From Acidobacteriota bacterium (GTDB lineage: Bacteria > Acidobacteriota > UBA6911 > RPQK01 > JAJDTT01), in the NCBI GenBank assembly GCA_965217775.1, contig CBDCJH010000002.1, positions 3,104,001 through 3,168,000 on the forward strand: 64,000 nt of DNA, written 5' to 3'. A program made the translations under genes and the position numbers. Of the stretch, positions 29,052 to 33,013 are shown piece by piece. The stretch's first letter is position 1. Every line of letters begins with the position of its first letter. Below the pieces are notes generated by a model. The model had not been told where the DNA came from. It did not search any database and worked only from the letters and a program-made list of their open reading frames with translations.

Positions 29052-30753
29052 AGGCGCTCCTCATGAAGAAGCTTCGTTTGCTGGGCAAACGGCTGTTCCA
29101 CGGCCCGGAGTTCGCCTCGCTGCTTCGACGATGCGGCATCGAGCCCCACCGATACTGGATCCTGGTCGATCTGTTCGAGACGCTTGGCAAGCGGCAGGAA
29201 GTGACTCGGATGGGTTCCGACGCCTACACCATGCGCAGCTTCACTATCTTCTGGGTCTTTCTTTCTGGCGTATTGGGCGTCGTGATGGGAGCTCTCGGCT
29301 CCACCGCCGGAGTCTACCTCCTGGTCTTTCTCGCGCTCACCGCTTTCCAACTCAGCATGCTGCTGATCCCCGAGATCGCCGAGGGACTCGTGAACCCGGT
29401 CGAGGGGCTGATTCTGGCTCATCAGCCGGTCAACGGCGCCACTTGGTTGGCCGCCAAGCTGACCCATCTCATCAGGATCGTCGTCTACGTGGTGGCAGGG
29501 GTCAACGGCCTGCCGGCGCTCGTTCCCTTCTCGGTCCCAGCGGAGAAGGTTTCCGGCCATTCGTTTACCCCATCATGCATCTTCTGACGGCTCTCGGGGT
29601 CGGGCTGGTGGTCGGGTTCCTCTGTTGCAGCCTCTTCGGATGGTTGGTTCGCTTCGTTCCCGTCCGGCGGCTCAAGGCGGCCGCGGCCATGGCCCAAGTC
29701 ATCCCCATGCTCATTGCGCCGGGTATTCAGTTCTTGAGTGCGTCGGGTGCGTTGGTGAACGAGTTGCCGTGTTGGTTCATGTCCATCGAGCCGCCCGAAG
29801 CCTGGCTCGGAATCGGCGGCGCGGTTCCCGGGGGCTTCCCGGTTCTCCTGGCTGTGGTGGCCTTTGCTCTCACGACGGTCGCCGTCGTACCAGGTCTGCG
29901 GGCACTCTCCGTGGATCATCTGATCCGGGTATCGAGTCTGATGCATTCAGGTTCCAGGGTACGCAGGCGGGTACCGAAAGGATGGTCGATCGGGCCACGG
30001 ATCGCCAGGTTCGCCGGCGGTCAGGCCGCCCGCGCCGGTTACGAGTATCTGCGCTCAATGGTTTTGAGAGACTGGCAGTTCCGGAAGAACATGGCCATAA
30101 ATGCGCCGTATCTGTTCATCGGCCTCATCGTCCTGCTCGTTGCGGGCACTGAAACCACTCCATTTGCCACCGACTTCGCCTTCACTCACTTTCTGCCTCA
30201 TCTGATCGGAACGACGATTTTCTTCACTTGCCTCTACCTGGGGTATGGCAACGACTACAAGGCGGTCTGGTCGTTTACTATCGTTCCGGACTCTTCCTTC
30301 CGGCCGTTCGTGAGGGGAATCCATGCCGGACTCTGTTTCCTGCTGGTGGCCGTTCCCAACTTCTTCTGCCTTCTCGTGCTGGCTTGGTCCTGGGGCGTCA
30401 GAGATGCGCTGTGGGTCATCGCTTTCAGCACCGCCGTCGCCTCCCTGTATTTGGCAGTCGGCCTCAGACTGATCGACGGGCTCCCCTTCGGAAAACAGAC
30501 CCCGCCCGCTCGGCAGGTAATAACGTTAGCGATGACGATGATTTACCTCGTGGTCCTAAGTGTGGCCATCGGGATCCATTACCTCGTATTCCGTTCCGTG
30601 GTGGCGGTTGCCGCTGTGACGATCATCGTAAGTGTTGGGGCCTGCTTTCTGACGAGAGCGACGCTGGCCGATTTCGAGTCCCGTATTCGGCGCAGCCTGA
30701 ATCCGGGTGCGGTACGACAGTTTCTTGCCTTCGTCGAACAGAAAACGGAGTAG
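29048..30753 (+). pseudogene. ABC exporter membrane protein split by a frameshift near 29530-29560
   Basis: Hydrophobic sequence switches from ORF 29048-29587 to ORF 29131-30753. Confidence 0.7.
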
Positions 30754-31238
30754 ATGGGAGCACACATGAGACACGCATCCGTAACGTTGACAGTATTCGT
30801 ATTGTTAACAGCCCGTGGTAAAAGTCCTCACGGCATTCGACCGTCCCTGCATCCCGGCGGACTGCGTTGCGACTCGGTCACATACTCCCGGTATGCTTGT
30901 CTGTTATTTCTTGTCTGTCTTTCTTCTTGGGGGGGTACAGATTGTGGTGTCAGCAAAAAGGGAGCACCCTGTGGGAAATCTTTGATTTTCCACAGGGGGG
31001 TTCCGGGTGACGAGGGGGCCTCGGGGCTCTCGTTTCAGGGATTTCAAGTGGGTATGTGTCTCTTTGCATCCGGGGGGTCTCAGGGGGGGCCGGCCCCCCC
31101 TGCCCCCGTCAACGCCGCCAGTGGCGACAGCAGGCGCAGGGCCGTGACCCAGCCATCGTCCAGGCTTGGCTCGGTGGCGCCGGCATGATTTCTGGTGGGT
31201 TATTCCGATACGGGTTGGGATCTTTTGGGAGGATCCAT

Positions 31239-31392
31239 CCGAGGCGCCTCTGGCCAGAGGCGCCTCGGCGGCGGTGGTCGGGCCGTTATGTATGCCGGCC
31301 GTCAAGGGCCGGGAGGGAGTGGGGCCGCCACCGTCTTTCCCAACGTCCTGAATGGATACGTGAGCGTCAAGGCTCGCACGACAAGCACAGGA
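31239..31392 (+). ncRNA. Putative IS110 bridge RNA (5' hairpin, target-binding loop, donor-binding loop); 5' end uncertain
   Basis: Two internal loops, each with a GTCAAG-capped hairpin flanked by guides matching the target (GTATGC / GGAGGGAG) and the donor (ATGGATAC / GACAAG). Confidence 0.85.
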
Positions 31393-31402
31393 GGAAGGAA
31401 AG

Positions 31403-32356
31403 ATGACTCAGGATACCTCAAAGACGGTGGGTGTGGACATCTCGAAGGCGCATTTGGACGTGCACGAGTGGCCTTCGGGACGGTCGAAGCGGTTCCCCAA
31501 CGACACGGCAGGGTTCCAGGCCCTGGCCCGCTGGATCGGACCGGAGGTCCGGTGCGTGGTGTATGAGTCCACGGGCCCCTGGCACCGGGCGATGGAGGAA
31601 GCTCTGGCCGCTCGGTTGCCGCTGGCTCGGGTCAACGCGATGCGGGCGCGGCGGTTCGCGCAGGCGCTGGGCCAGGAGGCCAAGACCGACGCGGTGGATG
31701 CCCGGATCCTGGCCCGGATGGGGGAGGCGCTCCCGTTGCGGCGTGTGGACGTGTCCTCGCCCACGCAGCGCCAGTTGGAGGAACTGATCTCGGCGCGGGA
31801 CGGGCTGGTGAAGGATCGGACGGCGGCTCGCAACCGGAGCCACCACGCGCGCCACCCGATGGTGAAGCGGCATTTGCGACAGCGGCTGGCTCAGATTGAG
31901 CGCCAGATCCGGGCCCTGGACGGCGAGTTCCGCAAGTTGCTGAAAGCCGATCCGGCGCTGGCGCGCAAAGCCGAAGTGCTGACTTCGATTCCGGGAATGG
32001 GTCCGGTCACGGTCGCGGGCCTGCTCTCTCTGATGCCGGAACTGGGACAGATCGACTCCAAGGCGGTGGCCAGCTTGGCCGGTCTGGCGCCGGTGGCTCG
32101 GGAGTCGGGGACCTGGAAGGGACGTCGCTTCATCCGCGGGGGCCGGCATCGGGTGCGGCGGATGCTGTATATGGCCGCCCTCACCGCCATTCGACACAAT
32201 CCGGACTACATCCAGAAGTATCGCCAGCTGCGTGAGCGGGGCAAGGCGCCGAAGGTGGCGCTCACGGCGATCATGCGCAAGATGGTGATTTTGGCCAACG
32301 TCCTGCTGAGCCAGGATCGGGTGTGGACACCGCGGCCAGTCAGGGCGGTCGGATGA
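31403..32356 (+). CDS. IS110 DEDD recombinase/transposase
   Basis: VGVDISK, YESTG, KTDAVDA (DEDD); SIPGMG; GLAP...SG catalytic Ser; RRFIRGGR; RBS AGGA. Confidence 0.97.
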   Translation: MTQDTSKTVGVDISKAHLDVHEWPSGRSKRFPNDTAGFQALARWIGPEVRCVVYESTGPWHRAMEEALAARLPLARVNAMRARRFAQALGQEAKTDAVDARILARMGEALPLRRVDVSSPTQRQLEELISARDGLVKDRTAARNRSHHARHPMVKRHLRQRLAQIERQIRALDGEFRKLLKADPALARKAEVLTSIPGMGPVTVAGLLSLMPELGQIDSKAVASLAGLAPVARESGTWKGRRFIRGGRHRVRRMLYMAALTAIRHNPDYIQKYRQLRERGKAPKVALTAIMRKMVILANVLLSQDRVWTPRPVRAVG

Positions 32357-33013
32357 GTCTAACCAGGGAGGAAACAATCCCTGGAAAATCGGAAGATTTG
32401 CAACATGGATACTCCCTCATCGCGCCTTGTCCGGCGGGCGCAGGAACGGTCTCGGTGCTCGCGGGACTTTCACCACGGACTGTTAACAGCGTACACGACT
32501 GCCGCGGTGCCGACGGCGGAGGCAGCCGGCGACAAGGCCCTGGACGAATGGATTGGAACTTGGACGTCCCAGGTCGTATTCAAACCGGCTGCATGGTCGC
32601 TGAAGCCCAGAAAAATATCAGGAACGTCGAAGGCCGAGTGGATTCTGCATAGCCGATACCAGCAGATCTCCAGCCGCGCCGGGGAGTATGAGACCCGCGA
32701 ACTCCAGCGCTATGAACCGAAGAGCGGCAAGTATCACAAGTGGGTCTTTTCGTCTGACGGCTCGAACAGCTTCTGGATTGGCGCCTGGGACGCAGAGTCC
32801 TCCACCATGACCTGGGAGTACGTCGACTTCGGCGCCGGCCTCAGGGGCAAGATCGTGGATCGCTTTTTCAGCGACGGGAAATACGAATCGAAACTGCTTA
32901 TGGAGGACAGCACGGGCAACGTGCTCCTGGATGTCCGGTCCATACAGACTCCCGTCCAGAAACCCGCCGGGTAGTCCCCGTTCCGCTTCCGCAGCGGCTG
33001 GCCGTCGCCGCTG

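What the first reader, a model, noticed from the sequence alone, without database searches (positions are those of the whole stretch)
31312..31387. Handshake positions match the recombined products rather than the substrates
Seen: the donor-loop right guide extends to GACAAGCA (31380-31387), the exact reverse complement of the left junction TGCTTGTC (30894-30901). The target-loop guide is followed by TG, which pairs with the donor-derived TA of the right junction (one Watson-Crick pair, one wobble) and not with the target's TG. Known: handshake pairing was described structurally for IS621 as favouring strand exchange. Inference: independent support for the RNA assignment and a bias toward integration.
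Basis: partly seen in the sequence, partly recalled or inferred. Interest (0 to 1): 0.7.

Follow-up and report, generated by a model that had tools for sequence, protein, structure and literature searches.

The report
Bridge RNA handshake guides, IS110 element
This is an ordinary IS110-family jumping gene whose guide ("bridge") RNA carries the already described "handshake" bases that favour insertion, and only one base of each claimed pair of bases is supported by relatives.

Summary
GACAAGCA (31380-31387) is the reverse complement of the left junction TGCTTGTC (30894-30901), and GAGGGAG (31313-31319) is followed by TG.

The setting is a 1516-bp IS110-family insertion sequence (30898-32413). 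It sits at a CT core in the middle of a ~165-bp genomic repeat. An IS621-type bridge RNA lies in its left end, and all four guides match the real target and donor.

The two dinucleotides are the handshake guides published for IS621 (PMC11208158, PMC13626964).

I curated 57 distinct related bridge RNAs.
- **First handshake base, supported.** It pairs Watson-Crick with position 7 of the non-cognate DNA in 50/57 (donor loop) and 55/57 (target loop). It pairs with its own substrate in only 6/57 each.
- **Second base, not supported.** Pairing with position 6 is at chance level (12/57 and 10/57).

So C31386-G and U31320-A are the supported handshake. A31387-T and the G31321·T wobble look incidental. 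Position 6 is T in both substrates and cannot discriminate.

Watson-Crick pairs rise from 1 before exchange to 3 after, as in IS621. The insertion bias is inferred by analogy, not tested. Verdict: a new member of a known kind.

The parts
30804..30895 (+). Left half of the ~165-bp host repeat. Its last 7 bases, 30889-30895 CGGTATG, are the left target (positions 1-7).
   Evidence: Many genomic matches to query 5-98 of window:30800-32500. Uninterrupted repeat copies.
30896..30897 (+). Left copy of the CT core
   Evidence: Empty sites read ..GGTATG CT CCCTC... Joints skip 1516 bases with 2 shared letters.
30898..32413 (+). IS110-family insertion sequence, 1516 bp, counted with the right CT core
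   Evidence: Four copies at 100% identity with the same ends.
30898..31402 (+). Left non-coding end (505 nt). It begins with the right donor TGTCTG.
31239..31268 (+). 5' stem-loop of the bridge RNA (perfect 13-bp hairpin)
   Evidence: Fold of 31225-31402: -93.7 kcal/mol, z -4.59.
31270..31333 (+). Target-binding loop module. Outer stems are 31272-31284 with 31323-31333. The inner hairpin is 31296-31311.
   Evidence: Stems covary in 54 distinct homologs.
31290..31295 (+). Left target guide GUAUGC. It has the same sense as target positions 3-8, so it would pair with the bottom strand.
   Evidence: Read against the empty site.
31313..31319 (+). Right target guide GAGGGAG, complementary to core + right target CTCCCTC
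31320..31321 (+). Target-loop handshake dinucleotide UG. U31320 pairs with donor A7 (32411). G31321 can only wobble with T6.
31347..31391 (+). Donor-binding loop module. The outer stem is CCUG 31347-31350 with CAGG 31388-31391. The inner hairpin is 31360-31377.
31352..31359 (+). Left donor guide AUGGAUAC. It has the same sense as the right-end terminus ATGGATA + C.
   Evidence: exact match to the real right end
31380..31385 (+). Right donor guide + core pairing, GACAAG. It is complementary to CTTGTC (30896-30901).
31386..31387 (+). Donor-loop handshake dinucleotide CA. C31386 pairs with target G7 (30895). A31387 pairs with T6 of either substrate.
31403..32356 (+). Recombinase gene, 317 aa, with a DEDD RuvC-like domain and a Tnp domain
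   Evidence: Pfam PF01548 (E 1.5e-19) and PF02371 (E 8.1e-21). IS621 transposase 8wt6 E 8e-28 and ISCro4 transposase 9t56 E 6.2e-28.
32357..32413 (+). Right non-coding end (57 nt). The left donor ATGGATA is 32405-32411 and the right CT core is 32412-32413.
32414..32486 (+). Right half of the host repeat. It begins with the right target CCCTCAT.

Best explanation
The window holds an IS110-group insertion sequence whose left end encodes a bridge RNA of the IS621 type.

**What pairs with what.** The target-binding loop pairs with the middle of a high-copy genomic repeat (CGGTATG-CT-CCCTC). The donor-binding loop pairs with the joined ends of the element (ATGGATA-CT-TGTC).

**Where the dinucleotides sit.** Each dinucleotide directly follows the core-pairing AG on the 3' side of its loop. 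These are UG at 31320-31321 and CA at 31386-31387, and they are handshake guides.

**What happens at exchange.** After the recombinase cuts and swaps the top strands, the incoming strand brings positions 6-7 of the other DNA. U31320 then pairs with donor A7, and C31386 pairs with target G7.

**Pair counts for insertion.**
- Before exchange: U.G wobble, G.T wobble, C/A mismatch and A-T. That is 1 Watson-Crick pair and 2 wobbles.
- After exchange: 3 Watson-Crick pairs and 1 wobble.

**Consequence.** Exchange gains pairs in the insertion direction and loses them in the excision direction. This should bias the element toward staying inserted.

**Which positions matter.** Only the position-7 pairs appear to be selected. 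The position-6 contacts (A31387-T, G31321.T) cannot discriminate, because both substrates have T6, and they are not conserved in relatives.

**Shown versus inferred.** Shown: the anatomy, the boundaries, the complementarities, and the conservation and co-variation of the position-7 rule. Inferred from IS621 experiments: the strand-exchange mechanism and the directional bias.
For: Family and boundaries:
- Recombinase domains and similarity to solved IS621 and ISCro4 transposases.
- The alignment of 13 relatives has invariant D12, E55, D96, D99 and S235.
- Four copies at 100% identity, all in the same repeat at CT. Empty repeat copies. Joints that skip 1516 bases.

The RNA:
- All four guides match the real target and donor.
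- The fold has z -4.59, and 0 of 200 shuffles fold as well.
- Stems in 54 distinct homologs are 92.6% paired against 65.2% in shuffles. All 23 pairs show compensatory changes. The alignment was fitted to the model.

Handshake rule in 57 distinct curated homologs:
- Donor-loop first base with target position 7: Watson-Crick in 50, wobble in 4, mismatch in 3. The shuffle mean is 20.2, and 0 of 10000 shuffles reach 50.
- Target-loop first base with donor position 7: Watson-Crick in 55 and mismatch in 2. The shuffle mean is 29.8, and 0 of 10000 shuffles reach 55.
- Subsets with real junction DNA only: 35 of 37 and 46 of 46. The pair types seen are C:G, G:C, A:T and T:A.
- Cognate (pre-exchange) pairing is depleted: 6/57 and 6/57, against shuffle means of 15.8 and 15.1, and 0 of 10000 shuffles are as low. 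The six cases are the elements in which target and donor share the same position-7 base.
- Watson-Crick pairs after exchange exceed those before in 41 of 57 elements, equal them in 14 and are fewer in 2.

Literature, as passages read:
- Handshake guides were named for IS621.
- Covariation at position 7 was reported across IS110 orthologues.
- Pre- and post-exchange variants change insertion and excision efficiency in opposite ways.
Against: - No experiment was done on this element.
- The homolog table was curated by hand. For 20 of the 57, target positions 6-7 were read from the left target guide and not from junction DNA.
- Of 123 loci, 32 could not be parsed and 29 parsed loci were left out.
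- Relatives are not independent. On the recombinase tree, donor position 7 and its handshake base each change only 3 times.
- The independent-pair tests have 2 to 6 pairs each. They are never in the wrong direction, but none can reach p 0.05.
- In this element the target loop's U can still wobble with target G7 before exchange, so the gain is smaller than a pure mismatch-to-pair switch.
- Seven of 57 (donor loop) and 2 of 57 (target loop) relatives break the rule.
Confidence: 0.85

Rival explanations
1. The full two-base handshake is functional on both loops. On this reading the 8-nt match GACAAGCA/TGCTTGTC and the U-A plus G.T pairs are both selected. This element would then have a stronger product-directed clamp than its relatives.
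For: - In IS621, adding a second handshake pair (U167 changed to pair with target position 6) improved recombination in vitro and about 1.2-fold in cells (PMC11208158 passage). A position-6 pair can therefore help.
- In this element both donor-loop bases pair with the left junction.
- Where relatives have C as the second donor-loop base, target position 6 is G in several: L074, L077, L047 and L098.
Against: - Position-6 Watson-Crick pairing is 12/57 (shuffle mean 8.8; 1005 of 10000 shuffles reach it) and 10/57 (shuffle mean 13.2).
- With real junctions it is 9/37 and 9/46.
- The donor loop keeps CA in 17 of 20 close relatives, while target position 6 is T in 3 of those 20.
- The sibling element in the same genome has CA with target C6.
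- Here T6 is shared by target and donor. A31387 pairs equally before and after exchange, and G31321 wobbles equally.
Confidence: 0.15
2. The dinucleotides are kept for reasons of RNA architecture or protein contact, as linker bases next to the outer stems. Their complementarity to the products would then be a by-product.
For: - They lie directly beside the closing stems (31322-31333 and 31388-31391).
- The donor loop and the donor ends are both highly conserved in the clade, so shared ancestry alone explains much of the 55/57 (3 changes on the tree).
Against: - Target position 7 changes at least 15 times on the tree and the donor-loop handshake base at least 10 times, yet 50/57 stay Watson-Crick with four pair types.
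- Pairing with the cognate substrate is specifically avoided.
- IS621 structures show these bases paired to the exchanged strand (PMC11208158 passage).
Confidence: 0.06
3. Chance: two extra complementary bases next to a true guide, with no meaning in this element.
For: - At this locus alone the odds are only about 1/16 (donor loop) and 1/8 (target loop).
- The 8-mer itself occurs 3 times in the window against 1.31 expected.
Against: The same register holds in relatives with different targets and donors.
Confidence: 0.04

Closest known systems
IS621 of Escherichia coli and its bridge RNA (PMC11208160, PMC11208158, PMC13626964)
   Same: - Recombinase with the same two Pfam domains, and direct sequence similarity (8wt6, E 8e-28).
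- CT core at both ends, and insertion into a repeated genomic element.
- Bridge RNA in the long left end with a 5' stem-loop, a target loop and a donor loop.
- Left guides have the sense of the top strand and right guides are antisense to it.
- Two-base handshake guides directly 3' of the core-pairing AG.
- 1 Watson-Crick handshake pair before exchange and 3 after.
   Different: - Other target, a ~165-bp repeat of this genome (14-mer CGGTATGCTCCCTC, 83 exact copies), and other donor ends.
- The left end is 505 nt, with about 340 nt ahead of the RNA.
- The target-loop handshake base U can wobble with the cognate target G7.
- No biochemical data.
ISCro4 / IS622-type bridge recombinases used for genome engineering (PDB 9t56; bioRxiv 10.1101/2025.05.14.653916, search listing and abstract only)
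   Same: Best sequence match among solved structures (E 6.2e-28). The printed alignment lines up D12, E55, D96, D99 and S235 with the same residues.
   Different: Only the protein was compared. I did not examine that system's RNA.
IS1111-group elements and seekRNA systems (PMC11208160 passage; PMC13604230 abstract in the listing)
   Same: Same recombinase family and the same RNA-guided choice of target and donor.
   Different: Those carry the RNA in a long right end and have longer subterminal inverted repeats. Here the right end is 57 nt and the RNA lies in the left end.
ISPpu9 of Pseudomonas putida (PMC12288879, abstract in the listing only)
   Same: An IS110-family element present in several copies, each inserted in a repetitive extragenic sequence.
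   Different: Its small RNA gene is described downstream of the transposase gene. It was not compared here.

Membership tests
IS110 family, IS110 group (bridge recombinase elements) | Recombinase with an N-terminal DEDD RuvC-like domain (PF01548) and a C-terminal Tnp domain (PF02371) | tested here: met
   Both domains are above Pfam's cut-offs: 70.7 bits against 29, and 74.6 bits against 21.3. phmmer hits to IS621 and ISCro4 transposases.
IS110 family, IS110 group (bridge recombinase elements) | Catalytic D-E-D-D and conserved serine | tested here: met
   D12, E55, D96, D99 and S235 are invariant in 13 relatives and are aligned to identical residues of ISCro4 transposase. Their correspondence to IS621 D11/E60/D102/D105/S241 (named in the passage) is inferred.
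IS110 family, IS110 group (bridge recombinase elements) | Scarless insertion at a short core (CT) present at both ends, with no terminal inverted repeats | tested here: met
   Occupied and empty sites differ by 1516 bp with CT shared.
IS110 family, IS110 group (bridge recombinase elements) | Long left end and short right end, with the RNA in the left end | tested here: met
   Left end 505 nt and right end 57 nt. The group criterion is quoted from PMC11208160.
Bridge RNA (IS621 type) | Two internal loops whose 5' and 3' strands match left/right target and left/right donor around the core | tested here: met
   GUAUGC, GAGGGAG, AUGGAUAC and GACAAG match the real flanks and ends.
Bridge RNA (IS621 type) | Conserved secondary structure with compensatory changes | tested here: met
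   23 of 23 pairs have changes on both sides, with 92.6% of cells paired. The alignment was fitted to the model. The unfitted seed alignment showed 3 of 23.
Bridge RNA (IS621 type) | Handshake base pairs with position 7 of the non-cognate DNA and not with the cognate | tested here: met
   U31320 with donor A7 and C31386 with target G7. Relatives: 55/57 and 50/57, and cognate 6/57 each.
Bridge RNA (IS621 type) | The RNA is transcribed and bound by the recombinase | tested here: inconclusive
   Contigs from RNA libraries of one study cover 31232-31387 (depth 31.4 and 24.8) more deeply than the gene (2.6-12.7). Contigs cannot show ends or exclude DNA carry-over. Binding was not testable.
Bridge RNA (IS621 type) | Membership in a curated RNA family | tested here: not met
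   No Rfam 15 family reached its gathering score on 30500-32800. The 5 weak hits are unrelated families. This speaks to the library, not to the RNA.
Bridge RNA (IS621 type) | RNA-guided recombination activity and directional bias | not testable with these tools
   Only indirect evidence: four copies at 100% identity in cognate sites.

The most novel reading that the evidence does not exclude
The handshake base limits natural retargeting. This genome holds two sibling elements (57% identical recombinases). They share one donor module and the donor-loop handshake base C, but their target loops aim at two different high-copy repeats. Both targets, and most targets in the clade, keep G at position 7. 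Where relatives moved to targets with T or C at position 7, the donor-loop base changed with them. Acquiring a new target would then need a three-way match (left guide, right guide and the handshake base in the other loop), which couples the two supposedly independent loops.
Probability: 0.4. Interest if true: 0.35.

Novelty: new member of a known kind. Interest (0 to 1): 0.2.

Why it matters
The finding adds a natural, apparently recently active bridge-RNA element from an uncultured lineage. Its closest outside relative is in an Acidobacteriota metagenome-assembled genome (record title). Target, donor and all guide segments are fully resolved.

It independently reproduces, in a different clade, the published rule that position 7 carries the handshake and position 6 does not. 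That is useful for annotating such RNAs and for choosing handshake bases when these systems are reprogrammed.

It does not open a new question. Both the mechanism and its role in direction were published in 2024 and 2026.

Tried and rejected
- **Rfam.** No bridge RNA family matched. The hits to Xoo5, mir-255, mascRNA, mir-7640 and Archaea_SRP are all far below their gathering scores and were set aside.
- **Genome-collection scan with the single protein.** It gave only 8 loci. I widened the sample with a phylum search and a metagenome scan.
- **Guide columns from MAFFT or the covariance-model alignment.** Loop lengths differ between relatives, so the left-guide columns were out of register. I replaced this with anchors on real junction DNA.
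- **First regular-expression parsers.** They picked wrong AG sites in several loci: the sibling group, L070, L072, L082/83, L045 and L093. These were corrected by a stem rule, by junction matching and by four hand overrides.
- **The 'GCUAG' subgroup and other unreadable loci.** L054, L095, L109, L111, L139, L144 and L145 form the subgroup. L053, L055, L062, L093, L103, L110, L114, L132 and L138 had an unreadable left guide or target loop. All were left out of the counts. Where their target-loop handshake base could be read, it mostly agrees with the rule.
- **Sigma-70-type promoter scan of 30850-31450.** None found.
- **Uncovered stretches in the RNA-library contigs.** They do not cover 30933-31054 or the stretch just after 31387. 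Absence of cover in contigs proves nothing and is not used.
- **Tree-aware independent pairs.** There are too few pairs (2-9 per coding) for any test to reach significance.
- **Earlier notes of this scan.** None near this place.
- **Supplementary files.** The supplementary tables of the IS621 papers, which hold the covariation data and orthologue lists, could not be read. This element or its clade may already be in them.

Full report
**What is at the coordinates.** From, 31380-31387 is GACAAGCA and 30894-30901 is TGCTTGTC, which are exact reverse complements. 31313-31319 is GAGGGAG and is followed by TG (31320-31321). The right junction reads ..ATGGATA CT CCCTCAT.. (32405-32420). The guide starts at 31313, because G31312 would face A at target position 15.

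**The element.**
- The ORF 31403-32356 (317 aa) has the two Pfam domains of IS110 recombinases.
- It matches the solved IS621 and ISCro4 transposases at E about 1e-27.
- D12, E55, D96, D99 and S235 are invariant in an alignment of 13 relatives.
- The window's genome has four copies at 100% identity. All lie at the same point of a ~165-bp repeat, which gave 272 BLAST rows in the genome.
- Uninterrupted repeat copies read ..CGGTATG CT CCCTCAT...
- The element is therefore 1516 bp (30898-32413) and is flanked by CT on both sides.
- Contigs of three RNA-library runs and one other run join 30895 to 32412 with two shared letters. These are most simply the empty repeat copies.
- The exact 14-mer target occurs 83 times in the genome.

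**The RNA.** The left end is 505 nt. Bases 31225-31402 fold with z -4.59 into a 5' hairpin (31239-31268) and two stem-enclosed internal loops.

| Loop | 5' strand | 3' strand |
|---|---|---|
| First (target) | GUAUGC (31290-31295), same sense as target positions 3-8 | GAGGGAG (31313-31319), antisense to core + right target |
| Second (donor) | AUGGAUAC (31352-31359), same sense as the right-end terminus + C | GACAAG (31380-31385), antisense to core + left-end terminus |

This is the arrangement described for IS621. There the left guides pair with the bottom strand and the right guides with the top strand (PMC11208158 passages). The RNA lies in the long left end of IS110-group elements (PMC11208160 passage).

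A covariance model built from 10 close relatives found 55 matches at E up to 1 in 94 homolog loci, nearly all just upstream of the recombinase gene. On that model-fitted alignment the stems are 92.6% paired against 65.2% in shuffles, and all 23 pairs show compensatory changes. Rfam holds no matching family.

**What the dinucleotides are.** In IS621 the two bases after the core-pairing bases of the right target guide and right donor guide are the handshake guides. After top-strand exchange they pair with positions 6-7 of the other DNA. Covariation across orthologues was reported for position 7. Variants that pair before exchange block recombination, and variants that pair after exchange promote it (PMC11208158 passages). 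The 2026 paper shows that the same bases act inversely on excision. It also states that wild-type IS621 has one Watson-Crick handshake pair before exchange and three after, and that this suppresses excision (PMC13626964 passages).

Here target positions 6-7 are TG and donor positions 6-7 are TA.

| State (insertion) | Target loop UG | Donor loop CA | Total |
|---|---|---|---|
| Before exchange | U.G and G.T wobbles with the target | C/A mismatch and A-T with the donor | 1 Watson-Crick pair, 2 wobbles |
| After exchange | U-A and G.T with the donor strand | C-G and A-T with the target strand | 3 Watson-Crick pairs, 1 wobble |

Only position 7 differs between the substrates. The whole discrimination therefore rests on U31320 and C31386.

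**Test in homologs: sampling.**
- I gathered 123 loci: the window, the sibling element of the same genome, 8 loci from genome contigs, 30 loci from a search of 401 genomes of the phylum, of which 18 had a match at E 1e-40, and 80 loci from metagenome contigs.
- 91 of the 123 could be parsed. 32 failed: 13 without the left-donor-guide motif, 8 with too little upstream DNA, 6 truncated at the 5' end and 5 without a right donor guide.
- Donor positions 6-7 came from the real right junction wherever the downstream DNA held left-donor-guide + CT + a right target matching the right target guide.
- Target positions 6-7 came from the real left junction where it was found. Otherwise I read them by eye from the left target guide.
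- I curated 62 loci and merged them to 57 distinct elements. The 29 parsed loci left out are further copies of the same elements, a subgroup with GCUAG in place of CAAG, and loci whose left guide or target loop I could not read.

**Test in homologs: results.**

| Contact | Watson-Crick | Other | Shuffle control |
|---|---|---|---|
| Donor-loop first base with target position 7 | 50/57 | 4 wobble, 3 mismatch | mean 20.2; 0 of 10000 reach 50 |
| Target-loop first base with donor position 7 | 55/57 | 2 mismatch | mean 29.8; 0 of 10000 reach 55 |
| Donor-loop second base with target position 6 | 12/57 | 45 mismatch | mean 8.8; 1005 of 10000 reach 12 |
| Target-loop second base with donor position 6 | 10/57 | 15 wobble, 32 mismatch | mean 13.2 |

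- With real junctions only, the first-base counts are 35/37 and 46/46. Four pair types are seen for the donor loop: C:G 20, G:C 11, A:T 3 and T:A 1.
- With real junctions only, the second-base counts are 9/37 and 9/46.
- Pairing of the first base with its own substrate is depleted, at 6/57 in each loop. No shuffle is as low. The six cases are elements whose target and donor share the position-7 base.

Among the 20 relatives that share this element's donor end (..TA), the target-loop dinucleotide is UG in 9, UU in 6, UC in 2, UA in 2 and AG in 1. The donor-loop dinucleotide is CA in 17. Target positions 6-7 are CG in 11 and TG in only 3. The sibling element in the same genome has CA opposite a target with C6. 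The eighth base of the GACAAGCA match and the G.T wobble are therefore most likely incidental.

**Limits.**
- The table is hand-curated.
- Relatives share ancestry, and shuffles ignore that.
- On a quick recombinase tree of the 57 elements, target position 7 changes at least 15 times and the donor-loop base at least 10 times. Donor position 7 and the target-loop base change only 3 times each.
- Independent-pair tests give 2-6 pairs per coding for position 7. They are never in the wrong direction, but there are too few of them to be significant.
- The published analysis of thousands of orthologues (passage) is the stronger evidence for the rule. My sample shows that this clade follows it.

**Expression.** In two RNA libraries of one study, contigs span 31232-31387 and 31232-31386 at depths of 31.4 and 24.8. 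Contigs over the gene have depths of 2.6-12.7. A third library has a contig over 31085-31571. This is a weak hint of an abundant RNA that covers the bridge RNA. Contigs show neither ends nor strand, and DNA can be present in such libraries.

**Verdict.**
- The mechanism, including the insertion bias, is already published for IS621.
- This element is a new, well-resolved member of that kind.
- The directional bias here is inferred and has not been measured.

Noticed in passing
G000:C2:5760144-5761895 and G000:C2:6039542-6041287 (loci L003/L006, L004/L005); corresponds to window 30896-30969: Two of the four copies carry a direct tandem duplication of the first ~72 nt of the left end. Each unit starts at CT + TGTCTG. 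The inner left-end terminus is preceded by CC, so it would not pair with the donor-loop CA. No solitary 72-nt remnant was seen in the list. The origin is unexplained (slippage, or insertion at an internal CT followed by deletion).
   Followed up: partly
G000:C2:4662258-4663237, 2744757-2745735, 1161588-1162566, 2679078-2680057 (L007-L010): There is a sibling IS110 element (recombinase 57% identical) in four copies. It has the same donor ends and donor loop but another target..CCGCCG CT.., inside a different short repeat. It has two versions of the target loop within one genome. L007 and L010 diverge from the others before the right end and share more than 1 kb of identical downstream sequence.
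   Followed up: partly
window 30804-30895 + 32414-32486, and more than 200 other places in the genome: A ~165-bp repeat with terminal inverted repeats (TTAACAGCCCGTGG .. CCACGGACTGTTAA) gave 272 BLAST rows. Variants of the insertion site exist, such as ..GCTCCCGA and ..GCACCCGA. The nature of the repeat (MITE-like or REP-like) was not studied.
   Followed up: no
window 30898-31238: About 340 nt of the left end lie ahead of the bridge RNA. In the sibling element and in the metagenome clade the RNA core starts about 50-75 nt from the terminus. This extra part holds a perfect hairpin (30971-30995) and long G and C runs (31073-31108). Its function is unknown. It is conserved in the 88%-identical relative L031/L032.
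   Followed up: no
window 32398-32403 with 30905-30910: The right end finishes with TTGCAA. Across the joined ends, 17 nt further on, lies TATTTC, a weak sigma-70-like promoter of the kind that IS110 circles are reported to rebuild. The sibling element has TTAAAT at that place. This was read by eye, and no scan of the joined form was made.
   Followed up: no
window 31232-31387: RNA-library contigs from two runs of one study begin at 31232 and stop at 31386 or 31387, the last base of the donor-loop handshake dinucleotide. The next contigs start at 31400 and 31411. If these were real ends, the RNA would lack the 3' strand of the donor-loop outer stem. More likely this is an assembly break at a fall in depth.
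   Followed up: no
L073, L078, L079, L069, L070 (metagenome loci): In several single metagenome insertions the real left flank matches the left target guide at only about 4 of 7 positions, while the right flank matches the right target guide well. These may be off-target or half-matched insertions, or the left guide may tolerate mismatches.
   Followed up: no
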